45,566 nucleotides of DNA from Escherichia phage vB_EcoS_XY1, in the sequence record NC_073325.1. One strand, given 5' to 3'. Made by a program: the position numbers and the translations under genes. The number at the start of each line of letters is the position of its first letter. Position 1 is the first letter of the stretch. Positions 1 through 45,566 of this stretch are shown here, in pieces. Below the pieces are notes generated by a model. The model did no database searches, was not told where the DNA came from, and saw only the letters and a list, made by a program, of their open reading frames with translations.

Positions 1-127
1 GGGTCAGTCTGCGGCTTCCAGTTAGCGTTACCAACCGGGTTAAACGATGCGGGGACAACAACCGGCAGAGTCCCGGTATACGAGTACCACGTCTTGCTTA
101 CAGGGTCATACACCACTTTGTCTCGGT
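1..127. repeat. Direct terminal repeat; identical copy at 45440-45566 (circular closure overlap or terminal redundancy)
   Basis: Bases 1-127 match 45440-45566 exactly when read from the sequence. Confidence 0.9.
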
Positions 128-3810: not shown

Positions 3811-5211
3811 TTAGCCGTCCACATTAAAATCAATACGAGTGATATATTTACTACCCCACGCAGAATCGGCCTGAGGGATAGTCGCGTAATCATCTACAGC
3901 CTGAACGTTTATCACGGAGCCGTCGGAATAGGTGATGTCGATACTTGTCGCGCCGTTCATTACTACTTTTGCCGATGGCGCTGGGCGTGTTACAGGAGAC
4001 GCCGACGTAATTATTGGTGATGTTGTATTTTGGTTTACCTCTACAGTAGCCGCGGATAATTTAATCCCTGAAACGCCATCCCCCGTAAAGGATCCGGTAA
4101 CTCCGTCTGAATATATCCATGCGTCCATCCGTATGCTCATTGTTTTATCTTCTGTCGCGGTGATCGTCTCCGATATTCGGAACCACCCTCCGCCTACGTC
4201 GGTTACATCTGTACCGCCTGGGCCGGAATAAATGCTACCATCCCGCAAATCAACAACTGCCGAGCCTAATACTGTAGGAAGTTCTCGCACGTACATCCGT
4301 ATGAAATTGTATCCGTTTGCTTTTGCGAAGAAACTAAAAGTAACCATGTCGCCAACACCAACGCTAACATCTACAGTCTGGTTTATTAGGTGGTTACCGC
4401 TTGCGGCGGTAGCAGTTACGTCGTACGTGCCAGCGGCTGTTAAAACACCTGTTTCAGATACTGATACACTCACCAAACCTTTGTTCCAGTTTGACGAAGA
4501 GAAATTGCTTGAATATAGGAATCTGTTAGTTACTGATACCTCTGGTGGCACGCGCCCGGCGGCAACCCCGTCAATAAACGTAAGAGGCCATTCATTGGCG
4601 GCGGACTGTACAAGATTACCATTGCGGTTGATGTAATAAACCTGCGGCCCCTCATACACAATGCGGCTATCAAGAGTCGACGCCAGAAGGTTAATCGGCG
4701 GATACCCGGCGGGGCCTTCATTGCTCCAGATGCGAGGGAACGTCGTCTCATAGTTCGCGTATATTTTCAGGAAACTACCCAGACAATCCCCGTAACAACC
4801 GTACAAATCTGGAAGATTGTTAATCAGGCACTGGTTCTCAAGGTCCTGGAACGGAGATTTCTCCGCGGTTGCCGTGAAAGTAATCGTCCAGTTAATCCCG
4901 TCTTCTGTGGATTCCGCGATGGTTGACGTAATGGTTACCTGATAATCCTCGATACCCATGCCGAAGTCGTGCGCCATCCAGAAACTTGACGCACCGCCAT
5001 CGACTTTCTCAAGGAACGACAGGAACGCCTGCCGCCCTAGTGCTGAGGTAATCAGGGTTACGCTTATTGGGAACACGTCGTAATACGTGTCGCGCCCCTG
5101 GCGCACTCCGCCGCCAGCTAAATCAACGCTCCAGACGTTGTTACGTCGGGTCATTGAGTAGCCTTTCGACACCACCGGCTTTAAACTTGCTGGAAATTTC
5201 AAAGAAGACAT
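3811..5211 (-). CDS. Minor tail / distal tail protein
   Basis: 466 aa, first gene after the tape measure on this strand; AGGAG SD; Ser/Thr/Gly-rich beta-type composition. Confidence 0.45.
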   Translation of the reverse strand: MSSLKFPASLKPVVSKGYSMTRRNNVWSVDLAGGGVRQGRDTYYDVFPISVTLITSALGRQAFLSFLEKVDGGASSFWMAHDFGMGIEDYQVTITSTIAESTEDGINWTITFTATAEKSPFQDLENQCLINNLPDLYGCYGDCLGSFLKIYANYETTFPRIWSNEGPAGYPPINLLASTLDSRIVYEGPQVYYINRNGNLVQSAANEWPLTFIDGVAAGRVPPEVSVTNRFLYSSNFSSSNWNKGLVSVSVSETGVLTAAGTYDVTATAASGNHLINQTVDVSVGVGDMVTFSFFAKANGYNFIRMYVRELPTVLGSAVVDLRDGSIYSGPGGTDVTDVGGGWFRISETITATEDKTMSIRMDAWIYSDGVTGSFTGDGVSGIKLSAATVEVNQNTTSPIITSASPVTRPAPSAKVVMNGATSIDITYSDGSVINVQAVDDYATIPQADSAWGSKYITRIDFNVDG

Positions 5212-9461: not shown

Positions 9462-10616
9462 ATGGCCCAGAAGAAAATAACCGACGAACAGTTACAGGAA
9501 GAATTGAACGCCGGGATGAAGATTATTGATATCGCCCGTAAATACGGCATCTCAGACCGCGTTATTCGTATCCGTAAAGCGAAGCTGGCTAAGAAAGGTG
9601 TAGGCCACGGGCGTGACGTTAGTCACCTTGTACCGGACGGCTACAAGATTAAAGGAACGTCGTCTCTGGTTGATGAGTTAGGCAACACTAAACTGCAATG
9701 GGTTAAGACCGACACCGATGCGGAACGTCAGGTCGAGTTAATGAAAGCCGTTGTGGACGAGATGAAAAAAGATTTACCCAAGTATAAGCCAGTCACTTTG
9801 GCCAAAAATGGGACAGATGACGACTTATTAAATCTTTACACAATAACAGACCATCACATAGGGATGTTGGCGTGTCAAGAAGAAGGCGGGGATGATTACG
9901 ACACCACAATCGCGGAATCTCTCGCGGTTGACTGGTTCAACAGTGCGGTTTGTATGAGTCCACAGAGTGGTGAATGTATCATTAACTTCTTAGGGGACCA
10001 AATGCACTACGACGGCATGAAGGCAATGACCCCTATGAGCGGTCATATTCTTTCAGCGGATAGTCGCCTGTTTAAAATGATACGCACGGCCATTAAGGTT
10101 ATCAAGCTGGCTGTCTCACTGTGCTTGCGAAAACACAAGAAGGTTAAACTTCTTATCTGTGAAGGTAACCACGACCTTAGTTCTTCTCTGTGGCTCCGGG
10201 AGATGTTCTACGAGGTATACACAAATGAGCCTCGCGTCGAGGTTAACCGGGAGGTGTCACCGTATTATGCGTACAAGTTCGGGGATTGTATGATTTCAGC
10301 ACATCACGGGCATTGTTCTAACTTTGCTAAGGTAGAGCAGGCTATAATCGGTAAGTACCGGGAGATGTACGGGCGGTGTAAGTTCACATATGTCCATACG
10401 GGGCACCTCCATCACAGGGCGGTTAAAGAGACTAATCTGCTAATTGTTGAGCAACACCAGACATTAGCGGCTAAAGATGAGTATTCTAGTAAGGGCGGCT
10501 ATTATTCAGGTAGAAGCGCAAATGTGATTACATACCACAAACGTTACGGGGAGGTGTCCCGCATAAGTATACCTGTCGAAATGCTGCGAGACATAAACCC
10601 AAAATCGACATACTAA
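9462..10616 (+). CDS. HTH domain fused to a calcineurin-like metallophosphoesterase
   Basis: N-terminal HTH (IIDIARKYGISDRVIR); metallophosphoesterase-like motifs TDHHIG, LGDQMHYDG, EGNHD, HHGH, TGHLHH. Confidence 0.45.
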   Translation: MAQKKITDEQLQEELNAGMKIIDIARKYGISDRVIRIRKAKLAKKGVGHGRDVSHLVPDGYKIKGTSSLVDELGNTKLQWVKTDTDAERQVELMKAVVDEMKKDLPKYKPVTLAKNGTDDDLLNLYTITDHHIGMLACQEEGGDDYDTTIAESLAVDWFNSAVCMSPQSGECIINFLGDQMHYDGMKAMTPMSGHILSADSRLFKMIRTAIKVIKLAVSLCLRKHKKVKLLICEGNHDLSSSLWLREMFYEVYTNEPRVEVNREVSPYYAYKFGDCMISAHHGHCSNFAKVEQAIIGKYREMYGRCKFTYVHTGHLHHRAVKETNLLIVEQHQTLAAKDEYSSKGGYYSGRSANVITYHKRYGEVSRISIPVEMLRDINPKSTY

Positions 10617-10631
10617 AATATAGGTGAAAGT

Positions 10632-11195
10632 ATGGATTGGAGTGAGGTTTTTAGCTACAAAAATGGCGTCCTATACTGGAAAGTCAAATCATGTCGCCGT
10701 AACGATGTGAATACAGGTGATGTGGCCGGGAGTTTGTGTAAAAACGGCTATTGGTATGTCATGTTTGGTAACCGTAAGTTTAAAAGGTCGAGGGTGGTGT
10801 ATGAGATGTTCAGTACGCTGTATGACAATGAGCCGCGTGTGTTCGTCGATACGTCACCGGATGTTTACAAGATGGTGCAACACGGCAAAACGACGCTGTT
10901 CTTCCATCACGGGCATAAAGCACGATTCGACGCTATCGAACCGGTTATGATTGCCAAGTTTCGTAAAGCGTTCGGCGAGAGTGTTTACAGCTACGCCCAC
11001 GTAGGCCACCTGCACCATCAGAAGATTGTAGAAAGCCGTAACATGATTGTTGAGCAACACCGCACCTTAGCGGCTAAAGATGCCTACGCCTCCCGCGGCG
11101 GTTGGATGTCGGGCCGTAGTGCAAATGTAATTACTTATAGCGCCGAATATGGCGAGGTCGCACGTTTAACTATTTCACCGGAGATGCTTGGATGA
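10632..11195 (+). CDS. Chimeric paralog: homing-endonuclease-type N-terminal DNA-binding region fused to a duplicate of the C-terminal ~100 aa of 9462-10616
   Basis: N-terminus NGVLYWKV...GDVAGS...NGYWYV...RSRVVY follows the pattern that precedes the catalytic motif in phage HNH endonucleases; C-terminus HHGH...HVGHLHH...IVEQHRTLAAKD...GRSANVITY is clearly homologous to the end of the upstream gene. Confidence 0.4.
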   Translation: MDWSEVFSYKNGVLYWKVKSCRRNDVNTGDVAGSLCKNGYWYVMFGNRKFKRSRVVYEMFSTLYDNEPRVFVDTSPDVYKMVQHGKTTLFFHHGHKARFDAIEPVMIAKFRKAFGESVYSYAHVGHLHHQKIVESRNMIVEQHRTLAAKDAYASRGGWMSGRSANVITYSAEYGEVARLTISPEMLG

Positions 11196-18862: not shown

Positions 18863-18886
18863 GTTTCTCCTTTCTCGATAAGTAAA

Positions 18887-18906
18887 GCCCCGCCTTAAAG
18901 CGGGGC
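18887..18906 (-). terminator. Stem-loop in the leader upstream of the spanin genes
   Basis: GCCCCGC-CTTAAA-GCGGGGC hairpin followed by TTTACTT on the minus strand. Confidence 0.4.
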
Positions 18907-19086
18907 GCTAGTCCTTATCATTTAAACATAGAAACGGCGTAATCTCAGTAAACCCGTTACTTTTTACACGAGCAATAGAGTATGGCCCTTCCGAACGCGT
19001 CAGCGTAACTACACTCATGACTTACGTCCCGCTCCGTTACCTGCCCGCGCCGCGGTCGCTTGTTCATACTTCACAAGCTCAGGTGG

Positions 19087-19129
19087 AGCTTAGCACATTT
19101 TTAGTGAAAAGTCAACTATTCGAATAGTT
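19087..19129 (-). promoter_or_regulatory. Promoter-like site with adjacent 16-bp perfect palindrome
   Basis: Minus orientation TTGACT-N17-TAAGCT; palindrome AACTATTCGAATAGTT at 19114-19129 abuts the -35. Confidence 0.35.
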
Positions 19130-19176
19130 TATTCCTACATTTACAATTTGGTGGAATAACTGGAATAATCACAGGC

Positions 19177-19200
19177 ATTAAAAAGCCCCTTTCGGGGCCT
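19177..19200 (-). terminator. Rho-independent terminator after gene 19205-19666
   Basis: GGCCCCGAAAGGGGC hairpin followed by TTTTT on the minus strand. Confidence 0.6.
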
Positions 19201-20778: not shown

Positions 20779-22260
20779 TTACTGCTGAGCGGTGTCTTGT
20801 TGCTGAGCCGACTGCGGAATCTCCCCCGTCACCTGAGTAACGGCCCCCAACGGCAATGGTGCATCCTCGATAGCGTTCTGAATGTCTTCATCCTTCCAGT
20901 CAGTTACACCCGCCTTGCGCAACGCAGCATAGTAAGCGGTGGCGGGCAGCAAGCCAGCGTTAATGTCTGCCATCCACTGGGCGCGGTCCTGAGCTGTCAT
21001 CGGTTGTAGGAAGAACTCCATGTTCAGCTTGAATTCAATCTCTGTGTCTTCGCGCAACCCTAGCATCGCCGCTACCCAGCGCAATGCATCGGTATACGCC
21101 ATGCTTACGTTACGCGCGATTGTTGCCATGACTGACGTATCGGCGCCGCGTTGCAGGCGGGCGGATTCGGCGGTGATTTGCTGCGTCGGGGTGATAAGCT
21201 GCGCGCCAATCTGAATGGCCTGATTCTCTTTATCCAGCATATTCTGTTTGGCGAGGTTGTTCTCTCCTGCCTGAACCAGAAACGCATTGCCGCCGTACCC
21301 GATGTTATGGCCCGAACGCGACCCCATACGCACGCCGTGGGGGTTGGCTTCTTTCCACTGTTCCATGCTCATGTTCTCACCGGGGGCAATAAACAGCGTT
21401 GGCTGGCCTACAACGAAGCTGGATTCCTCATTGTCCGCGCTGTTACGGAAATGCCCGATATTAAGTTCAGCCAACGGCAGCAAAGGGGCATCGTCGATGG
21501 TTGCGTCGTTGTTGCTTGCGCCAATAAACGTGAATGGGATTTTGCCGCGTAACTGTTCGCCGAGTTCCGGGAATATTTCGATTACTTCACCCTGAGCGCC
21601 ACCTTCTGCATCGAAGCGGTAAATGCGCTGGCGGTAGCGACCATCAATCAGGTCAAGAACACGATACTGCTCACCGAACTTGGTTTCGAACTCTGCGCCC
21701 TGTTCCGAGTATTCCCACACCTCTCGCAACACGACCATCGTCACTCGGTTAACTGAACCGATGCGGGTAAGTCGCCAGTTGATGATGTTCTCTGCGGTGT
21801 AAAATGCGATGACCGGGTTTAATAACCCCGCGTTCTGTTCTGCTGCCGTTGCCGCAGCTGTCTCAGGGGCATCCACCAGCAACCCACCACGGCCCACCGA
21901 GTCAATCTCCATCAGCGTGTCCTGTGCGTGCTGCCACAGCCCGACACCGGAACCGTCGGCATTACGTAACAGGTACTCAAGTTCCGGCGGGATAATCTGT
22001 TCAGGGTCTTTGCGCATGACACTGCCGACCATCCCCGCCAGGGTGCGTTTAGTGAAGTTGTAACAGATAGCGCCGTTCTCGTATTCTTCCTGGCGCTGTG
22101 CTGCGTAGGTCGGTTCAGGCTCGTTCTTCCCGACGTTGCGCAGGTAACGGATAAGGCCGCCTTCCAGCGCGTGGCGTACCTTCTGCCATTTATTGAAGTG
22201 ATGCAGCCATTCCCGGTGTTTAGTCTTAACACCCTGATTCTGACCGTTCATAGTTAACAT
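20779..22260 (-). CDS. Portal protein
   Basis: 493 aa directly downstream of the large terminase gene. Confidence 0.8.
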   Translation of the reverse strand: MLTMNGQNQGVKTKHREWLHHFNKWQKVRHALEGGLIRYLRNVGKNEPEPTYAAQRQEEYENGAICYNFTKRTLAGMVGSVMRKDPEQIIPPELEYLLRNADGSGVGLWQHAQDTLMEIDSVGRGGLLVDAPETAAATAAEQNAGLLNPVIAFYTAENIINWRLTRIGSVNRVTMVVLREVWEYSEQGAEFETKFGEQYRVLDLIDGRYRQRIYRFDAEGGAQGEVIEIFPELGEQLRGKIPFTFIGASNNDATIDDAPLLPLAELNIGHFRNSADNEESSFVVGQPTLFIAPGENMSMEQWKEANPHGVRMGSRSGHNIGYGGNAFLVQAGENNLAKQNMLDKENQAIQIGAQLITPTQQITAESARLQRGADTSVMATIARNVSMAYTDALRWVAAMLGLREDTEIEFKLNMEFFLQPMTAQDRAQWMADINAGLLPATAYYAALRKAGVTDWKDEDIQNAIEDAPLPLGAVTQVTGEIPQSAQQQDTAQQ

Positions 22261-22272
22261 TGAATAATCCTC

Positions 22273-23544
22273 TTAAAGTGCGAAAGTCACCGGGACGTTA
22301 ATAACTGGTTTGCGAATCGGCATTTCATACGCGATAGGGTATGTGGTTCCATCATTCTGGTGGTCCACACCACCTGATTTATCCGGTTCGCCGTTCTTGT
22401 CGTAGGCTTGCTGCTCCAGGCATCGAGCAGTAACCGGGCAAGCCTGTTCGTTAATCATGACCATACCAGATTCAAGCGCCTTATTCATCGCAGATACGCG
22501 GTCTTTAACCGGTGGGTTTGTCGATTTAGCGCGTACTTCGAAACCGGCCTGCTGTAGCTGGACGATGTCGGAGGTGCTGGCGTTGTTGCTTTTACGGTTC
22601 TTGCCGCTGGCGTCCGGGTACATAACGATATAATGGCCCTTACTTTTCCAGCGCTCCGTTATGGCTCGCACTACATCCGGCGTATCGAACATATCAACCA
22701 ACTCGGCGACAGCGTGCCACACCTTTCCGCGTTGCACGTAGACTGTGCTCGCCATATGGCCTACGTTAAAATCCTGCCCAATATACAGAGTCTCACCAGG
22801 CTTGATTGTTTCGCGACTGCTGTTTTTCCTGCGGTCGTAAGCGTAGTAGACCGTCCCAGCCGTGAGGTTTACGAACTCGCCGTTGATGTAGGCATCAATC
22901 AACTGCCCGGGGTAGGTATCTCGTAAGGACTGCACATAATCTTCTGGCAGGAACGGGTTAGACAGGGTGGACGCCTGAATCATCTCGTAACCAGGATTCT
23001 TTTTAACAACCCAGCGGTCATGCACGAAACGGAATCCTTCCGGCGTAGTGAACACGGAAACGGTATTAGCAGGTTTTGGCGTAATAGGTTTATACGTCCT
23101 CGGCAACTGACGGTTACGGGCGATGACTTTGTTCCATGCGTGCTCCGCGTGTTCCATGTTCAGGGTATCCAACTCGTCGATTTTTGCACGAAATGACTCG
23201 TAACCAACGATTCGTGCTGGATTATCTAATGTACGCAGGACAAAATCCCCAAATTGACCGGATGACGTATAGATTATGTTGTCGGACTTATTGTATTTGT
23301 ACCGGATACCCCAGTCCGTCAGCTTCTCTTCCATACGGGGCGCAAGGATAAGGCGTACCAGGTCATAAGTAGGCTCATACATGGCGATGATAGAATCGCT
23401 GCCACCCTCCATGCTGTCCAGTAGCGCGGAGTTACACATAACCTCTGATTTCCCGGTGCCGAAGCCAGCCACGAACGCAGGGAACTTGCAATGCATCCCA
23501 AGAAATGCGCCTTGAGGTTCCGTTGCCGTGATATTAACGTTCAC
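22273..23544 (-). CDS. Terminase large subunit
   Basis: Walker A-like AGFGTGKS; 423 aa; followed by the portal gene. Confidence 0.85.
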   Translation of the reverse strand: MNVNITATEPQGAFLGMHCKFPAFVAGFGTGKSEVMCNSALLDSMEGGSDSIIAMYEPTYDLVRLILAPRMEEKLTDWGIRYKYNKSDNIIYTSSGQFGDFVLRTLDNPARIVGYESFRAKIDELDTLNMEHAEHAWNKVIARNRQLPRTYKPITPKPANTVSVFTTPEGFRFVHDRWVVKKNPGYEMIQASTLSNPFLPEDYVQSLRDTYPGQLIDAYINGEFVNLTAGTVYYAYDRRKNSSRETIKPGETLYIGQDFNVGHMASTVYVQRGKVWHAVAELVDMFDTPDVVRAITERWKSKGHYIVMYPDASGKNRKSNNASTSDIVQLQQAGFEVRAKSTNPPVKDRVSAMNKALESGMVMINEQACPVTARCLEQQAYDKNGEPDKSGGVDHQNDGTTYPIAYEMPIRKPVINVPVTFAL

Positions 23545-24046
23545 CGGACACCACCTTAATTGTTACTTCACTGATTGGCTCGTCGCGTACTTCTTCGGCG
23601 ACAACTGTTTTATTCAGCCCCAGCTTAGCGGCGGCGAACGTAGCAGAGATACCGGCGGCCCCATTCTCAGTGAAATACGCCTCTTCCAGCGCCTGTGCCG
23701 TTTCATAGGCTTCTGCAAATGAGGGAATCTCGCGCAGCCACAGCTTAATAATCGGGATAGTGACACCGATGTGTAAGGCGAAGCGAGCCAGTGATGGCGG
23801 TTTATCCGCAATGACTGCTTTGTAGTCTCCGTGCGCACCGGTCGGCATAGCCTCCCACGACGTGCGGTCGAAGAAACGAATCAATTCGTCACAATAGTCC
23901 GGGTCCCACAACGCGGCGGAATTACGGGATGATTGATAAAGGCTCTGTTTACCGCGCGGTCGTTTACGGCGACGGTTTGCGCTAACAGCTTCTTCATGTG
24001 CAGCTTGCACCACCTCTGGTGATGGCTGCTTGAGTTTCAGCTTCAT
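23534..24046 (-). CDS. Terminase small subunit, putative
   Basis: Overlaps the large terminase start; basic N-terminal region; start placed at MKLKLKQ with AAGGGGA SD (track ORF extends to 24085). Confidence 0.5.
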   Translation of the reverse strand: MKLKLKQPSPEVVQAAHEEAVSANRRRKRPRGKQSLYQSSRNSAALWDPDYCDELIRFFDRTSWEAMPTGAHGDYKAVIADKPPSLARFALHIGVTIPIIKLWLREIPSFAEAYETAQALEEAYFTENGAAGISATFAAAKLGLNKTVVAEEVRDEPISEVTIKVVSGER

Positions 24047-24140
24047 AGAATCCCCTTGCATATGCGTCTGACCATCAGAGCGCACCAGACGCGCCCTACG
24101 CGTCTAAATGGATTATATAAGGGGATTGGGCGGGATGTAC

Positions 24141-24162
24141 AGAAAAGCCCTCGGTAGAGGGC
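24141..24162 (-). terminator. Terminator-like hairpin between the small-gene cluster and the packaging genes
   Basis: GCCCTC-loop-GAGGGC followed by TTTTCT on the minus strand. Confidence 0.45.
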
Positions 24163-24265
24163 TTGTATCAGTTGTATAGGCCGTGGCGTGGTGCTCTTTT
24201 ACCGTCGCCGCCGTAATGGTCGTTAGCTACGGGAATGGCCCGGGCGTTAGGGATGATTAGTAGTC

Positions 24266-24526
24266 TCATTCCCCGCTCTCCTCTCGTGCGATACGTTGCT
24301 CAGTTTTAGTGATACCCCGGCGCGTGAATAACACCGGGCTTGTTTTAACGTGCGTCATCAGACGGTTGTTATAAATTACGTGGCGCTCGCAGTCCACGTC
24401 TTTGCTGTACTTCGCAATCGTCATTTCGTTGATGCCGGTTTGTCGGCACGTCTCGGCCATCGTGCCAAATTCTTTAATCAGGTTAGGAATGCTGGTAATC
24501 ATCCTAAGAAATTCCTCGTTGTCCAC
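24266..24526 (-). CDS. Hypothetical protein, possible DNA-binding
   Basis: 86-aa ORF, last gene before the packaging module; central RQTGINEMTIAKYSK could be an HTH. Confidence 0.35.
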   Translation of the reverse strand: MDNEEFLRMITSIPNLIKEFGTMAETCRQTGINEMTIAKYSKDVDCERHVIYNNRLMTHVKTSPVLFTRRGITKTEQRIAREESGE

Positions 24527-24669
24527 ATCGCATTCGGATATTTGTTATCGCGGTCCTGCACTACAGCAATCATGTTTCCACGTTGCACCAGGCAGAAGTG
24601 CCGTTGTTGCTCGCCGTTGTAGCGACGCCAGATTGCCTCTTCGATTGCTGCGTTGATGTCACTGAACAT
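24499..24669 (-). CDS. Hypothetical small protein (unannotated in the ORF track)
   Basis: 56-aa ORF MFSDINAAIEEAIWRRYNGEQQRH... filling the gap between listed ORFs; coordinates approximate. Confidence 0.25.
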   Translation of the reverse strand: MFSDINAAIEEAIWRRYNGEQQRHFCLVQRGNMIAVVQDRDNKYPNAMWTTRNFLG

Positions 24670-24671
24670 AT

Positions 24672-24863
24672 CTACCCCACTATTTCATCACCGAGCCACG
24701 CCGTCTCTCGTATATCATCGACCACACACGCGGCGTGCTCACGGCTAATTGCAAAAATGTAGAAGCTAAACTTCTTCCCGTCGGCGTCGATATGGTTAAC
24801 AGAGTATGGTTTCCACAGGACGCCATCAATCACTACCGGTTCAGGCGCTTTCATGCCCATCAC
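24672..24863 (-). CDS. Hypothetical small protein
   Basis: 63-aa ORF in a same-strand series of tightly packed small genes. Confidence 0.3.
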   Translation of the reverse strand: MMGMKAPEPVVIDGVLWKPYSVNHIDADGKKFSFYIFAISREHAACVVDDIRETAWLGDEIVG

Positions 24864-28764: not shown

Positions 28765-29137
28765 TTCGTTTTCCTCTGTCTCGTCTGTGTAAATGAATAG
28801 TAGCCTATTCTATCTTAGTGTGCAAGTAAATTTTATTGGTGTTTTAAAGATAATCGTTCGCCACGAATCCAGTAGTACCTCGGGCGTCTGGCCCACTGGC
28901 ACCAGCGCATAACACGGTACTTGTTGCCGTCTGACGCAACAATAAGCCCGAATCGCTTTTCTCCGTTTCTACCGGTCCAGGTTACGATGTCATTCAGTTT
29001 CATTGTTGCGTCTCCTGCAATAGTCGCTTCGATTGTTGCGTTTGGTGAAAGTGTCGCCTTTTGACGACACTAAGTTAAAGTTGTACGCTGCTGTGTAGCA
29101 GCGTAAGTCACTCAGTAAAATCCCAAACTATTGAACA

Positions 29138-42885: not shown

Positions 42886-45566
42886 TTTATCTTCTAGTGC
42901 TGCCAGCCTCTTCTCGAACTCGCGCATCTTCTTACGCTGATACGCAATCTCTATGAAGAACATCTGGTCCGCCCTAACCCCCCATCTGCCGCCGGGAGGG
43001 GATACTTGTACAGTCCGTCCATCTTCATCAATATCATACGCAGCTTCAATTGAGTCGTAGCACAAGAAAGCATATTTACAATCGGTAGAATCTTTCTCCA
43101 TAAGCCCATGTTTGACCAAGATGTCTCGCACATCTTGAGCTATCACGCCGAAGTGTATCCTTGCAGTGTCACCCTTGATTGCTAGGCTTTCAAGCCACTT
43201 AAAAGATATTACATGTATATCTTCCCATGCGGTAAGGAGTTGTTCCTCAATTTCCTCTTTGTTCGTCTTAAGTGTACCGTCAGACGTGTTTATCGTACCG
43301 GTGGTCGCGTACACCGTAGTCCACCTATTACCTGCCGAACCTAAAGACACTTGCGAGTCTAAGTAAGGAAGGAAATTGTTGTATGAGTAGAAGCCTCCTG
43401 ACGCATACATAATAGCCCTGTTAGGCGTTGCATGGTTCGACCCGTACAGTTGCAGCAATGCACCGTCGGAACTGGATGCGCCATCACCGCCACTAACAAT
43501 CAGTCGTTGACCCGATGGAGTTTTAGTCGGGACTGTTTTTGAAATCAGCCCGTAATCACCATCAAACCGTGCACGCACGGCAGACTGTTGTGTGCCATCG
43601 TATTCCAACCCCGTTACACGCAGGGAGTACACGCTTATATCATTGTCAAACGTCAAAGGTGCTTCTACATGACGGACACCATCTACACCCATTGCGACAG
43701 GTAGTGTACGGTTAGGAGTTGCTCCGTATTTGAAATCACGTGACACATACGGGTGGCCTTCAATCTTTATCCGGTAGCTATATAAGTCAGCCGGATGCCC
43801 ATCATGCTTGTACCATAACTTCGCACTGTTATCCCCGATGCTCCAGGGAGAGAAGAAGTCTTCCCCACCAAAGATATAGTACAACCAGCCATCTTTAACA
43901 CAGACAGAGCCGACGCCGACAGCAGAGTTAACAATATGGCCCTGGTATATTTGGTCGGTAATATTAAACCACTGAACATCATCTAAAGATGAAGGCCATG
44001 ACGACACATTAACTTTGCACATAAAGGTCCGTGGATACGAACCTTCATAGCGGCTGTCCGGCTCGCCTCCTTCCCACTCGCCAAAGGCACGTTCTGTACC
44101 AAAGATGTAGAGATAGTCACCTACTTTAGCGAACGGAAGATTGGAGTGATGTACATTGTTCGGAAATCGCAAGTAGCTCCAGTTTTGCCCAGAATCGGTG
44201 CTCATCGCCAGTGTAGAGCCAGGGGAAGTAGGTAATGTGCCGCGTGTGGTAAGGTAGAGCACACCCCCATAACTTTTCACGCACGGTTCAGAAGCGTTAT
44301 CAGCGTATGCCTGAGCGACAGTGCGACGAACGAATACGCCTGGGTTGTCATAAACGTTACTAAAATACAAGACGCCAAGACGACGAGGGGACACATCGCC
44401 GTTGTGGTAGCCGACAGCGATAGTGTAGTTAGTATCATCTATAACCGCAAAACTATGTGTCTCCGTGACACACAAATCAGCGTTAGTGGAGTATGCTACC
44501 CCCGGCAATTCGGTAATTTCCCACGGGCTGTCCCAGAATCGCGTTGCGAAGTTCCAGGTAACACCCGCATTGTTTATGGTGGAACTCGCAGGGCTTGAGA
44601 GCGTAACAGTGAACGTATTTCGGTTAATTATAGACGCAACCGTCATATTACCCGATACGCCAGTTGCCGATGTATTAGAGAAGTTAACCGCATCTCCTGC
44701 TTTTAGGCCATGATTTTCTATAACAATGGTAGCAGTAGTGGAGCCAGAACTAATAGTTATTCCGCCGGTTGGGTGTCTAAAATACGGCATTGGGCGTGAC
44801 CAAAGTTCTGCCTTCTTCATCCGCATATTAGATAAGTAGCGGGTTTCTATAACTGCATATAATCGGTTGCCGCACGTACCCATGCTCATGCAGTGGTAGT
44901 TAACTCTGTCCGCAGAAACACTGGCATTATAGTCAGCATGGATTGGAGTCAACCACTCAGGCATTGACCAAGTCTGCCCGTCGTCACCAGAGCGAACCCA
45001 AGCTACATGTAAGTTTTGAACGCCATGTCGTTCGCCCGCCATAAACGGGGCGTAAATAACATGGTCGTAGACGAAAGTTTTATCCTGCGTCCATGCGTTG
45101 TAGAACGGGGTATCCGTCACCTTAGTTAGTGAGCTGTTAAAGAAGCCATCAGCTACATAAGTAAGCGGTTGCCCGGCTACACGCTCGTAAACGAATGCAG
45201 CATTCTTAAATTTACTAATGTCAGGTAATTGGGAAACTTTATAAGTCAAACCCCTGCCGTCTATAATCCAATTGTTGGGAGAAGCTGCTAATACATTAAA
45301 AATAGATTGAGTATCATCAGTTACACCGTCGCCCACGGCGCCCCATGCGCGTGGGTCGTATTCGTCCTTCCATCGCGCCATATGTAAATCTGGGTACAGA
45401 ATTGCACCGTTTACATCAGATATTTGCTGCCTGAGATTTGGGTCAGTCTGCGGCTTCCAGTTAGCGTTACCAACCGGGTTAAACGATGCGGGGACAACAA
45501 CCGGCAGAGTCCCGGTATACGAGTACCACGTCTTGCTTACAGGGTCATACACCACTTTGTCTCGGT
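42883..45566 (-). CDS. Tailspike: sialidase-like beta-propeller with C-terminal intramolecular chaperone domain (endosialidase-type); main body of the gene that starts at 371
   Basis: Asp-box motifs SGDDGQTW and STDSGQNW; C-terminal ...DIHVISFKWLESLAIKGDTARIHFGVIAQDV... chaperone-like region; ORF stays open to the window end and continues in frame from 1-371. Confidence 0.75.
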   Translation of the reverse strand, partial: RDKVVYDPVSKTWYSYTGTLPVVVPASFNPVGNANWKPQTDPNLRQQISDVNGAILYPDLHMARWKDEYDPRAWGAVGDGVTDDTQSIFNVLAASPNNWIIDGRGLTYKVSQLPDISKFKNAAFVYERVAGQPLTYVADGFFNSSLTKVTDTPFYNAWTQDKTFVYDHVIYAPFMAGERHGVQNLHVAWVRSGDDGQTWSMPEWLTPIHADYNASVSADRVNYHCMSMGTCGNRLYAVIETRYLSNMRMKKAELWSRPMPYFRHPTGGITISSGSTTATIVIENHGLKAGDAVNFSNTSATGVSGNMTVASIINRNTFTVTLSSPASSTINNAGVTWNFATRFWDSPWEITELPGVAYSTNADLCVTETHSFAVIDDTNYTIAVGYHNGDVSPRRLGVLYFSNVYDNPGVFVRRTVAQAYADNASEPCVKSYGGVLYLTTRGTLPTSPGSTLAMSTDSGQNWSYLRFPNNVHHSNLPFAKVGDYLYIFGTERAFGEWEGGEPDSRYEGSYPRTFMCKVNVSSWPSSLDDVQWFNITDQIYQGHIVNSAVGVGSVCVKDGWLYYIFGGEDFFSPWSIGDNSAKLWYKHDGHPADLYSYRIKIEGHPYVSRDFKYGATPNRTLPVAMGVDGVRHVEAPLTFDNDISVYSLRVTGLEYDGTQQSAVRARFDGDYGLISKTVPTKTPSGQRLIVSGGDGASSSDGALLQLYGSNHATPNRAIMYASGGFYSYNNFLPYLDSQVSLGSAGNRWTTVYATTGTINTSDGTLKTNKEEIEEQLLTAWEDIHVISFKWLESLAIKGDTARIHFGVIAQDVRDILVKHGLMEKDSTDCKYAFLCYDSIEAAYDIDEDGRTVQVSPPGGRWGVRADQMFFIEIAYQRKKMREFEKRLAALEDK
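45440..45566. repeat. Second copy of the 127-bp terminal repeat
   Basis: Identical to bases 1-127. Confidence 0.9.

What the first reader, a model, noticed from the sequence alone, without database searches (positions are those of the whole stretch)
24064..24105. Cluster of GCGTCT inverted repeats in the terminase small subunit leader
Seen: GCGTCTG (24064-24070), CAGACGC (24086-24092) and the hairpin AGACGCG-CCCTA-CGCGTCT (24087-24105) lie just upstream of the small terminase ATG (24046) and downstream of a weak TATAAT-type promoter-like site. Inference: an RNA structure or a binding site for a late-gene regulator; the adjacent gene 24266-24526 is a candidate regulator.
Basis: partly seen in the sequence, partly recalled or inferred. 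Interest (0 to 1): 0.25.

Follow-up and report, generated by a model that had tools for sequence, protein, structure and literature searches.

The report
Conserved two-hairpin leader RNA before terminase
The GCGTCT repeats belong to two adjacent RNA hairpins at the predicted start of this phage's packaging and structural-gene transcript; they are conserved with compensatory changes in three groups of enterobacterial phages, match no curated RNA family, and have no known function.

Summary
The repeats are at the stated coordinates. In this one sequence they are not above chance. Comparison with relatives gives them meaning and changes the pairing.

The window is a Kagunavirus genome with the relevant genes on the minus strand. 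The order is: terminator hairpin, TGTACA-18-TATAAT promoter, hairpin HP1 (24106..24086), hairpin HP2 (24085..24062), ribosome-binding site, terS ATG (24046).

- **HP1** has a 9-bp stem and an AGG triloop.
- **HP2** has 5 bp, a 1-nt bulge, 5 bp and a UGG triloop.

The same module occurs in Jerseyvirus, other Guernseyvirinae, Dhillonvirus and Eiauvirus, where TerS is only 27-34% identical.
- 17 of 19 pairs change on both sides, and 96% of cells stay paired.
- There are 44 G-U pairs on the terS-sense strand, against 3 if the antisense strand is read.
- The (A/U)GG triloops do not vary across lineages.

So this is an RNA element.

It has no Rfam match. It is not a terminator, not the mapped pac end, and not a recognisable HK022 put relative.

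Function is inferred: 5'-end protection plus a docking site for a conserved factor, possibly RNA polymerase.

The parts
24137..24164 (-). Intrinsic-terminator-like hairpin that ends the upstream (ninH-like) transcription unit: AAGCCCUC-UACC-GAGGGCUU followed by UUCUGU. Its tail overlaps the -35 of the next promoter.
   Evidence: Inverted repeat I6 and the sequence. The stem is kept by compensatory changes in relatives, for example AAGCCCGC...GCGGGCTT. The strict T-run rule of the scan does not list it.
24112..24141 (-). Sigma-70-type promoter-like site: -35 TGTACA (24141..24136), 18-nt spacer, -10 TATAAT (24117..24112).
   Evidence: 10 of 12 matches; top hit of the 20-kb scan. The -10 is kept as TATAAT or TACAAT in every lineage examined. 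It has not been mapped experimentally.
24105..24105 (-). Predicted transcription start: an A, the 7th nucleotide after the -10. It falls at the base of HP1.
   Evidence: Inference from promoter geometry. The stem of HP1 begins 4-9 nt after the -10 in all lineages (sequences).
24086..24106 (-). HP1: 5' arm UAGACGCGU (24106..24098), triloop AGG (24097..24095), 3' arm GCGCGUCUG (24094..24086).
   Evidence: Fold; covariance-model hit of 81.7 bits. Eight of nine pairs change on both sides. The triloop is (A/U)GG in all lineages; one Kagunavirus variant has GGG.
24062..24085 (-). HP2: outer 5' arm GUGCG (24085..24081), bulge C (24080), inner 5' arm UCUGA (24079..24075), triloop UGG (24074..24072), inner 3' arm UCAGA (24071..24067), outer 3' arm CGCAU (24066..24062).
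   Evidence: (9 of 10 pairs change on both sides; the closing A-U pair is invariant). The UGG loop is kept in 19 of 20 distinct sequences.
24044..24057 (-). terS ribosome-binding site: SD AAGGGGA (24057..24051) and ATG (24046..24044).
   Evidence: Sequence. The N-terminus MKLKLK is conserved with relatives. The RBS is predicted to be mostly unpaired in a transcript that starts at HP1.
24114..24127 (-). Possible anti-SD segment AAUCCCCUUAUAUA. It overlaps the -10 and lies upstream of the predicted start. It is complementary to 24062..24049 (UAUGCAAGGGGAUU, the terS SD). It would occlude the RBS only in RNA that reads through from upstream.
   Evidence: Inverted repeat I2. RBS accessibility falls from 0.66 to 0.36. 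The duplex is -15.1 kcal/mol, in the top 0.5% of genome windows. It is strong only in the Kagunavirus and Klebsiella 37P2 lineages, so it is suggestive, not established.
23534..24046 (-). terS (small terminase subunit, 170 aa), the first gene of the packaging and morphogenesis operon. terL follows at 23544..22273.
   Evidence: PHROG 3064 'terminase', E = 1.2e-71. terL has Pfam Terminase_6N and 6C domains. Annotated as such in relatives.

Best explanation
**Shown.** The repeats are the DNA copy of a structured RNA leader. Two coaxially adjacent hairpins are encoded on the terS-sense strand, directly after a conserved TATAAT promoter. The spacing between them is 0 nt in the window and 0-1 nt in relatives. 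HP1 is 7-9 bp capped by an (A/U)GG triloop. HP2 is 4-5 bp, a 1-2-nt bulge or internal loop, 5 bp and a UGG triloop closed by A-U. The window holds one copy.

**Inferred: what it does.** The element forms the extreme 5' end of the late (terS-terL-portal-head-tail) transcript and acts in cis on that transcript.
1. A stem that begins at +1 leaves no single-stranded 5' end for RppH or for the 5' sensor of RNase E. It would therefore stabilise the long late mRNA. This is the established behaviour of 5'-terminal stem-loops in E. coli.
2. The two invariant GG triloops, kept while the stems are almost completely rewritten and TerS falls to 27-34% identity, mark a docking site for a highly conserved partner.

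**My leading candidate for the partner** is the host transcription complex itself. In that case the element works like HK022 put or lambda nut: a promoter-proximal nascent RNA that makes RNA polymerase read through the terminator-like hairpins inside the 12-kb operon.

**How likely.**

| Claim | Probability |
|---|---|
| It is a functional RNA-level element | about 0.9 |
| 5' protection contributes | about 0.5 |
| It modifies RNA polymerase read-through | about 0.25 |
For: **Structure.**
- The MFE fold gives both hairpins in the window and, folded separately, in six of the seven other lineages; in Tsm2 the MFE keeps only HP2.
- RNAalifold on a naive MAFFT alignment recovers 15 pairs, 7 of them compensatory.
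- A hand-made structural alignment of 20 distinct leaders from 8 lineages gives 96.3% of cells paired, against 69.9 +/- 1.5 in shuffles (0 of 500 reach it). Seventeen of 19 pairs change on both sides. Slid controls give 21-57%.

**Strand.** The sense strand has 319 Watson-Crick, 44 G-U and 14 mismatched cells. Read as antisense, it has 319, 3 and 55.

**Distribution.** The element is found in:
- Kagunavirus and Jerseyvirus (50 loci);
- PSDA-2-like phages, Serratia Tsm2 and Klebsiella 37P2;
- Dhillonvirus (two stem variants);
- Edwardsiella eiAU-183;
- two further stem variants.

**It is anchored to the promoter, not to the RBS.** The stem begins 4-9 nt after the -10. HP1-HP2 spacing is 0-1 nt. 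The distance from HP2 to the ATG varies from 12 to 21 nt or more.

**One copy per genome**.

**Terminator-like hairpins inside the operon.**
- In the window they lie at 20768-20753, about 19200-19180, 18906-18887 and 16515-16494, with the operon's end at 12441-12422. Promoter-like hits are no more frequent than chance.
- Dhillonvirus and eiAU have similar hairpins after the capsid and tail-tube genes.

**No phage regulator stands out.**
- No Q- or N-like gene is among the nine small upstream ORFs.
- No conserved regulator is among the genes shared by the three taxa.

**Resemblance to putL.** HK022 putL also starts at +1 to +3 and opens with an AGACG/CGUCU helix (PMC9378689).
Against: - No transcription start, RNA structure or phenotype has been measured for any of these phages. 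A literature search found no transcriptome.
- The structural alignment was fitted by hand to the structure, which inflates the pair counts.
- A 5' stabiliser needs neither conserved loops nor a second hairpin.
- A put-like role has no direct support. The element is about 45 nt against about 72 nt for put. It lacks put's conserved bulges and triplex. The covariance model scores putL at only 5 bits.
- Terminators after abundant structural genes are common in siphoviruses without any antitermination system, and they may simply be leaky.
- The stem starts 9 nt after the -10 in 37P2, which would leave 2-3 unpaired 5' nucleotides.
Confidence: 0.45

Rival explanations
1. Translational or timing operator. 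The two GG-triloop hairpins bind a protein, either phage-encoded or a host RNA-binding protein, that sets when and how much TerS and TerL are translated. This would resemble the MS2 coat-protein operator, T4 RegA sites or the Mu Com-mom hairpin.
For: - Hairpins with an invariant loop and a bulge at a fixed position are typical protein-binding sites.
- The element sits 12-21 nt from the RBS.
- terL overlaps the end of terS, so control of terS could propagate.
- In the Kagunavirus and 37P2 lineages, an anti-SD segment embedded in the promoter could close the RBS in read-through RNA. That suggests translation of terS is under selection.
Against: - The element keeps a fixed distance to the promoter, not to the RBS.
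- The SD is predicted to be open in all lineages, and the hairpins do not sequester it.
- No conserved small regulator gene accompanies the element across taxa.
- The loops do not change while every phage protein diverges strongly.
- The loops lack the GGA that CsrA requires.
Confidence: 0.17
2. DNA-level site: a pac or terminase recognition site, or a palindromic operator for a late-gene regulator placed over the transcription start.
For: - The location is next to terS, as for SPP1 pacL/pacR and lambda cosB.
- HP1 is a perfect palindrome in the window.
- These phages package by the headful mechanism from a pac site that has not been characterised (PMC6776780, PMC10783031).
Against: - Non-Watson-Crick cells are overwhelmingly G-U on one strand, 44 against 3. 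That is not expected for duplex-DNA recognition.
- In Kagunavirus fEg-Eco19 the record was opened at the packaging end found by PhageTerm and checked by restriction mapping (PMC9038960). An identical element lies at 5144-5194, 5.1 kb from that end. The end maps to about 29048 in the window.
- Records that begin at the base of HP2 (SETP3 type) start at an in-frame upstream ATG. That is an ORF-calling convention.
Confidence: 0.07
3. The hairpins have no specific function. They would be GC-rich secondary structure carried along with a conserved promoter region.
For: - In the single sequence the repeats are not above chance.
- The fold z-score is only -2.57.
Against: - Stems are rewritten with pairing kept in eight or more lineages, while the loops stay fixed.
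- Pairing collapses when partners are slid by one to three columns.
Confidence: 0.03

Closest known systems
HK022 put RNAs (putL, putR): cis-acting antiterminator RNAs that bind the RNA polymerase beta' zinc-binding domain
   Same: - It is a promoter-proximal RNA made of two adjacent stem-loops and needs no phage protein.
- putL pairs from nucleotide 3 of the transcript, and its first helix is AGACG/CGUCU, as in the Kagunavirus and Jerseyvirus HP1 (PMC9378689).
- It sits at the head of a long operon that contains terminators.
   Different: - put is about 72 nt, with bulged loops, non-canonical pairs and a triplex. This element is about 45 nt, two plain hairpins with triloops.
- The covariance model of this element gives putL 5 bits, E = 3.6.
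- Sequences conserved between putL and putR (CGAACGG, GUCGGG, AGGAUGA) are absent here.
- The AGACG helix is not kept in Dhillonvirus, Tsm2, 37P2 or eiAU.
- The function of this element has not been tested.
5'-terminal stabilising stem-loops of E. coli mRNAs (ompA 5' UTR type; from my own knowledge of Emory, Bouvet and Belasco 1992 and later RppH/RNase E work)
   Same: - A hairpin starts at or within a few nucleotides of the 5' end.
- A second hairpin and an open RBS follow.
- The expected effect is protection from 5'-end-dependent decay.
   Different: - Such stabilisers work independently of loop sequence. Here the loops are invariant across distant phages.
- HP2 has a conserved bulge position.
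- No half-life data exist.
Lambda-type nut sites (boxA plus boxB) and promoter-proximal Q/qut systems
   Same: These are cis signals placed just after a promoter that license read-through of downstream terminators in a phage operon.
   Different: - There is no boxB-like GNRA-type pentaloop.
- A boxA-like CGCUCUGA occurs only in the Kagunavirus HP2 arm and is not conserved (sequences).
- No N- or Q-like gene was found among the nine small ORFs upstream of terS.
Packaging sites next to terS (SPP1 pacL/pacC/pacR, lambda cosB)
   Same: They have the same position at the 5' side of the small terminase gene and contain repeats or inverted repeats.
   Different: - The constraint here is on single-strand pairing of the sense strand.
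- The mapped pac end of a Kagunavirus is 5.1 kb away.

Membership tests
HK022 put RNA | Two adjacent stem-loops encoded just downstream of a promoter | tested here: met
   Structure. Position relative to the -10. The start site itself is predicted only.
HK022 put RNA | Sequence and structure similarity to putL/putR (about 70 nt, conserved bulges, U28, the G35-A9 platform) | tested here: not met
   The covariance model R1 scores putL at 5.0 bits, E = 3.6. The putL/putR alignment shares no conserved block with this element beyond the AGACG/CGUCU helix.
HK022 put RNA | Terminator read-through that depends on the beta' zinc-binding domain | not testable with these tools
   This needs in vitro transcription or rpoC mutants.
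Any Rfam 15 family | Covariance-model match | tested here: not met
   No match at gathering scores over the whole window. No match at E <= 10 over 23980-24280. Rfam holds no put family: there is no hit on the HK022 put region.
Intrinsic terminator or attenuator | GC-rich hairpin followed directly by a U-run | tested here: not met
   HP1 is followed by GGUGCG and HP2 by AUAUGCAAGG. No terminator-like site was called in 23500-24800.
pac or cos packaging site | The first packaging cut or genome end lies at the site | tested here: not met
   The fEg-Eco19 record is opened at its PhageTerm and restriction-mapped end (PMC9038960). Its element lies at 5144-5194.
pac or cos packaging site | TerS binds the duplex DNA | not testable with these tools
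   This needs EMSA or footprinting.
Palindromic DNA operator | Two-fold symmetry of the duplex, with deviations equally likely on either strand | tested here: not met
   44 G-U-type cells on the sense strand against 3 on the antisense strand.
5'-terminal stabiliser hairpin | The stem begins within about 0-2 nt of the transcript's 5' end | tested here: inconclusive
   The stem begins 4-9 nt after the -10 in all lineages, which is consistent with +1. No start site has been mapped.
5'-terminal stabiliser hairpin | Lengthens mRNA half-life in an RppH- or RNase E-dependent way | not testable with these tools
   This needs a rifampicin chase in wild-type, rppH and rne strains.
CsrA/RsmA binding site | GGA motif presented in hairpin loops | tested here: not met
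   The loops read (A/U)GG followed by G (HP1) or U (HP2). No GGA occurs in any lineage (alignment A7).
Lambda-type nut site | boxA plus a boxB hairpin with a GNRA-like pentaloop, and an N-type protein | tested here: not met
   The loops are triloops. The boxA-like string occurs only in Kagunavirus. No N-like family was found among the nine small ORFs upstream of terS.

The most novel reading that the evidence does not exclude
The element is a minimal, protein-independent antiterminator. It would be a roughly 45-nt nascent RNA of two GG-triloop hairpins that binds host RNA polymerase as it emerges and makes it resistant to the terminator hairpins inside the late operon. That would be a second, structurally distinct class of put-like RNA, shared by Guernseyvirinae, Dhillonvirus and Eiauvirus, which lack known Q- or N-type regulators.
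Probability: 0.22. Interest if true: 0.78.

Novelty: new variant of a known kind. Interest (0 to 1): 0.5.

Why it matters
**Gap it addresses.** Guernseyvirinae (Jersey-like Salmonella phages and K1G-like coliphages) and Dhillonvirus are among the siphoviruses most often isolated for biocontrol, therapy and synthetic-biology chassis work. How they switch on their packaging and structural genes is unknown.

**What it offers.** This is a short, sharply defined RNA element at the head of that operon, with strong covariation and invariant loops. It gives a concrete handle on late-gene control: few bases to mutate, and clear predictions for each outcome.
- If it turns out to modify RNA polymerase, it would be only the second kind of protein-free antiterminator RNA known in phages, and much smaller than put.
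- If it is only a 5' stabiliser, it is still a compact, portable leader for expression design in Enterobacterales.

**Annotation.** It also argues against TerS start codons that are called inside HP2.

Tried and rejected
It is 8 kcal/mol worse, has probability about 0, and is not conserved.
2. **pac or cos site.** Rejected from the strand asymmetry and the fEg-Eco19 end, which lies 5.1 kb away.
3. **'Genome ends' at the base of HP2 in SETP3-type records.** These are the start of an in-frame upstream ATG or GTG ORF (GTG 24085 here). This is an annotation convention.
4. **Rfam.** No match.
5. **Membership of the put family.** Not met.
6. **Other copies elsewhere in the genome, as with putL/putR or nutL/nutR.** None found.
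7. **boxA-like CGCUCUGA.** Present only in Kagunavirus.
8. **CsrA site.** No GGA in the loops.
9. **Short upstream ORF from the AUG in the HP2 loop.**
   - It ends in an ATGA overlap with terS in the Kagunavirus and PSDA-2 types.
   - Frame, length and peptide differ in every lineage, and the A of that AUG is paired.
10. **HP2 as coding sequence for an N-terminal extension of TerS.** No consistent frame across lineages, and the SD plus the conserved N-terminus point to ATG 24046.
11. **NinH-like neighbour as regulator.** The neighbouring gene is not conserved.
12. **Loose pattern scan of viral contigs.** It gave almost only chance hits. A tighter pattern added two new stem variants and three chance hits.
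13. **Anti-SD segment embedded in the promoter.**
   - Real in the window and in 37P2.
   - Marginal in four lineages and absent in four.
   - Kept as a side observation, not as the core mechanism.

Full report
**Context.** The window is a Kagunavirus (Guernseyvirinae) genome. Bases 23900-24400 are 100% identical to Escherichia phage BUCT825 and 94-96% identical to K1G, K1H and K1ind. The first and last 127 nt of the window are identical, so it is a circular assembly.

The relevant genes are on the minus strand:
- a NinH-like gene, 24526..24266 (Pfam NinH 23.3 bits, below the cut-off of 29.8);
- terS, 24046..23534 (PHROG 3064 'terminase', E = 1e-71);
- terL, 23544..22273;
- the portal gene, 22260..20779;
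- head and tail genes, down to 12446.

**Observation.** A promoter-like site lies upstream on the minus strand: TGTACA-18-TATAAT, with the -10 at 24117..24112.

Taken alone, the repeats are unremarkable.
- There are 76 perfect 7-nt inverted repeats with 3-20 nt between the arms in the window, against 54 +/- 10 simulated.
- Two within 45 nt occur 9 times, against 3.7 +/- 3.3.
- The fold z-score is -2.57.

**What comparison shows.** Fifty related loci from IMG/VR fall into an E. coli type and a Salmonella (Jersey) type.

| Type | Leader sequence |
|---|---|
| E. coli | AGACGCG-TAGGG-CGCGTCT G GTGCG-C-TCTGA-TGG-TCAGA-CGCAT |
| Salmonella | AGACGC-TCAGGGG-G(C/T)GTCT G ATGCG-(C/T)-TATGA-TGG-TCATA-CGCAT |

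The C-G to A-U switch in the second stem, and several G-U replacements, reveal two tandem hairpins.
- **HP1** (24106..24086): UAGACGCGU-AGG-GCGCGUCUG.
- **HP2** (24085..24062): GUGCG-C-UCUGA-UGG-UCAGA-CGCAU.

Its complementarity to the HP1 3' arm exists only in Kagunavirus, because Jersey phages have CATACGC. That pairing is energetically irrelevant: -14.8 against -23.1 kcal/mol, probability about 0.

**Depth of conservation.** TerS relatives at only 27-34% identity carry the same module: terminator, TATAAT, HP1, HP2, SD, terS.

| Lineage | HP1 | HP2 or other detail |
|---|---|---|
| Salmonella PSDA-2 type | GAGGUGCGC-AGG-GCGCGUCUC, two G-U pairs | |
| Serratia Tsm2 | not detailed | not detailed |
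| Klebsiella 37P2 | GUGGCCC-UGG-GGGCCAC | inner stem GCGUA-UGG-UACGC |
| Dhillonvirus, variant 1 | AGAUGGC-AGG-GCCGUCU | GCCGA-UGG-UCGGC |
| Dhillonvirus, variant 2 | AGGUGGU-UGG-GCCACCU | GCCGA-UGG-UCGGC |
| Edwardsiella eiAU-183 | GGGCGGGCC-AGG-GGUCCGCCU | |

A tighter pattern scan added two more stem variants, including an HP2 outer stem CCAG/CUGG in place of AUGCG/CGCAU.

Two groups of TerS relatives lack the element.
- Vibrio phage NF has no hairpins there.
- A low-GC group has a promoter followed by a terminator-like hairpin plus a run of six T.

**Statistics.** A covariance model built from Kagunavirus and Jerseyvirus leaders (R1) gave these results.

| Target | Score (bits) |
|---|---|
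| The window: exactly one hit, 24108..24058 | 81.7 |
| PSDA-2 types | 46-52 |
| Tsm2 | 21.6 |
| Dhillonvirus (L130 variant 12.2) | 19-22 |
| Klebsiella 37P2 | 17.2 |
| eiAU-183 | 12.9 |

RNAalifold on a naive MAFFT alignment still recovers both hairpins: 15 pairs, 7 with compensatory changes.

I then made a structural alignment by hand of 20 distinct leaders from 8 lineages (A7). It uses N as padding and artificial anchors at the ends.
- 96.3% of cells pair, against 69.9 +/- 1.5 in shuffles; 0 of 500 shuffles reach the observed value.
- 17 of 19 pairs change on both sides.
- Sliding the partners by 1-3 columns gives 21-57% paired.

The alignment was fitted to the structure, so these numbers are upper bounds. 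The separate MFE folds give the same two triloop hairpins in six of the seven other lineages; in Tsm2 only HP2 is recovered.

**RNA, not DNA.** Of the non-Watson-Crick cells, 44 are G-U on the terS-sense strand. Only 3 would be G-U on the other strand. Read as antisense, mismatches rise from 14 to 55. At least a dozen of these G-U pairs arose independently in different lineages and positions. A duplex-DNA site, whether pac or a palindromic operator, does not predict this asymmetry.

**Anatomy that constrains function.**
- The stem of HP1 starts 4-9 nt after the -10 in every lineage, which is at or next to the predicted +1 (24105 here).
- The spacing between HP1 and HP2 is 0-1 nt.
- The distance from HP2 to the ATG varies from 12 to more than 20 nt.
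- The loops are (A/U)GG and A-UGG-U in every lineage, although the stems are almost completely rewritten.
- The HP2 bulge keeps its place but not its identity.
- The RBS is predicted to be open in a transcript that begins at HP1.

So the element is tied to the promoter and the 5' end, not to the RBS.

**What it is not.**
- **Not a terminator.** No U-run follows either hairpin.
- **Not in Rfam**. Rfam holds no put family either.
- **Not the mapped pac end.** Kagunavirus fEg-Eco19 was opened at its PhageTerm and restriction-mapped end (PMC9038960). It carries an identical element 5.1 kb away, at 5144-5194. That end maps to about 29048 in the window. Other reports give headful packaging or no detectable termini for this group (PMC6776780, PMC9825357, PMC10783031).
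- **Not a physical genome end.** SETP3-type records that start at the base of HP2 begin at an in-frame upstream ATG, which is an ORF-calling artefact.
- **Not a recognisable put relative.** HK022 putL begins AUAGACG...CGUCU and pairs from nucleotide 3, much like HP1 (PMC9378689). However, R1 gives it 5 bits, and the blocks shared by putL and putR are absent here.
- **No link to the NinH-like neighbour.** The upstream gene differs between lineages that keep the element. No small regulator is shared by the window, Dhillonvirus bob and eiAU-183.

**Mechanism (inferred).** Two ideas explain different parts of the anatomy.

1. **5'-end protection.** A stem at the very 5' end denies RppH and the RNase E 5' sensor a single-stranded end. 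This is established for E. coli mRNAs (my own knowledge). It explains the fixed distance to the promoter, but not the invariant loops or HP2.
2. **Docking of a conserved partner.**
   - The invariant loops imply such a partner. The phage proteins have diverged to about 30% identity, no regulator gene travels with the element, and all carriers infect Enterobacterales. A host component is therefore the economical guess.
   - A promoter-proximal pair of hairpins at the head of a 12-kb operon recalls put and nut.
   - The operon contains terminator-like hairpins at 20768-20753, about 19200-19180, 18906-18887 and 16515-16494, before its end at 12441-12422. Promoter-like sites within it are no more frequent than chance.
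   - Dhillonvirus and eiAU have equivalent hairpins after the capsid and tail-tube genes.
   - This support is circumstantial. Such hairpins are common in siphovirus late operons and may simply be leaky.

My estimates are as follows.

| Reading | Probability |
|---|---|
| Functional RNA element | about 0.9 |
| 5' protection contributes | about 0.5 |
| RNA polymerase read-through (put-like) | about 0.22-0.25 |
| Translational or other protein operator | about 0.17 |
| DNA site | about 0.07 |

**Side observation.** In the window, the RNA copy of the promoter region, AAUCCCCUUAUAUA (24127..24114), lies upstream of the predicted start. It is complementary to the terS SD region (24062..24049; I2).
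- In RNA reading through from upstream, it would close a three-way junction around HP1 and HP2. RBS accessibility would fall from 0.66 to 0.36.
- The duplex is in the top 0.5% of genome windows here and is the best of 480 windows in Klebsiella 37P2.
- It is marginal in four lineages and absent in four.
- It may make terS translation depend on initiation at the late promoter in some lineages.

**Novelty.** I found no description of this element in the searchable literature or in Rfam. It is a new, well-supported RNA motif of a familiar general kind, a cis-acting leader hairpin element, and its function is unknown.

Noticed in passing
window 1-127 and 45440-45566: The first and last 127 nt are 100% identical. 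This is an assembly overlap of a circular or permuted genome, so the unique length is about 45,439 bp.
   Followed up: yes
window 24114-24127 with 24049-24062 (minus strand): A segment overlapping the -10 is complementary to the terS Shine-Dalgarno region. It would occlude the RBS only in read-through RNA. It is strong here and in Klebsiella phage 37P2, marginal in four lineages and absent in four others.
   Followed up: partly
window about 29002-29048 (minus strand): The PhageTerm and restriction-mapped packaging end of Kagunavirus fEg-Eco19 maps here. It lies next to two direct ACGCAACAAT repeats (29041..29032 and 29011..29002). This is a candidate pac region.
   Followed up: partly
window 24047-24085 (minus strand): The terS ORF can be extended in frame to GTG 24085, through HP2. 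SETP3-type GenBank and IMG records start at the equivalent ATG. The SD and the conserved N-terminus point to ATG 24046, so longer TerS annotations are probably wrong.
   Followed up: yes
window 24137-24164 and the equivalent places in all related loci: A terminator hairpin whose U-tract runs into the -35 region of the late promoter is kept, with compensatory changes, in nearly every lineage. The terminator and promoter appear tightly coupled.
   Followed up: partly
window 18880-19200 (minus strand): A small cassette is bounded by two terminator hairpins. It has its own promoter-like site, TTGACT-17-TAAGCT, and a tiny ORF. fEg-Eco19 has an opposite-strand gene there that is annotated as a possible moron.
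   Followed up: no
window 9462-10616 and 10632-11195 (+ strand): Two consecutive ORFs both match the calcineurin-like phosphoesterase of Dhillonvirus bob. The first is 48% identical over 377 aa, the second 92% identical over 129 aa. This may be a resident gene plus a recently acquired fragment. In bob that gene sits directly upstream of the terS leader.
   Followed up: no
loci L123-L136 (IMG/VR contigs with distant TerS relatives): Instead of the two hairpins, these have TGTTATAAT followed by GCGGATCGAAAGAGCCGC and a run of six T just before terS. This is a promoter-proximal terminator-like hairpin that may act as an attenuator.
   Followed up: no
window 24044-24074 (minus strand): The AUG in the HP2 loop opens a 10-codon ORF whose stop overlaps the terS start (ATGA). 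The PSDA-2 type has the same overlap. Frame and length differ in all other lineages, so it is probably not functional (sequences).
   Followed up: partly
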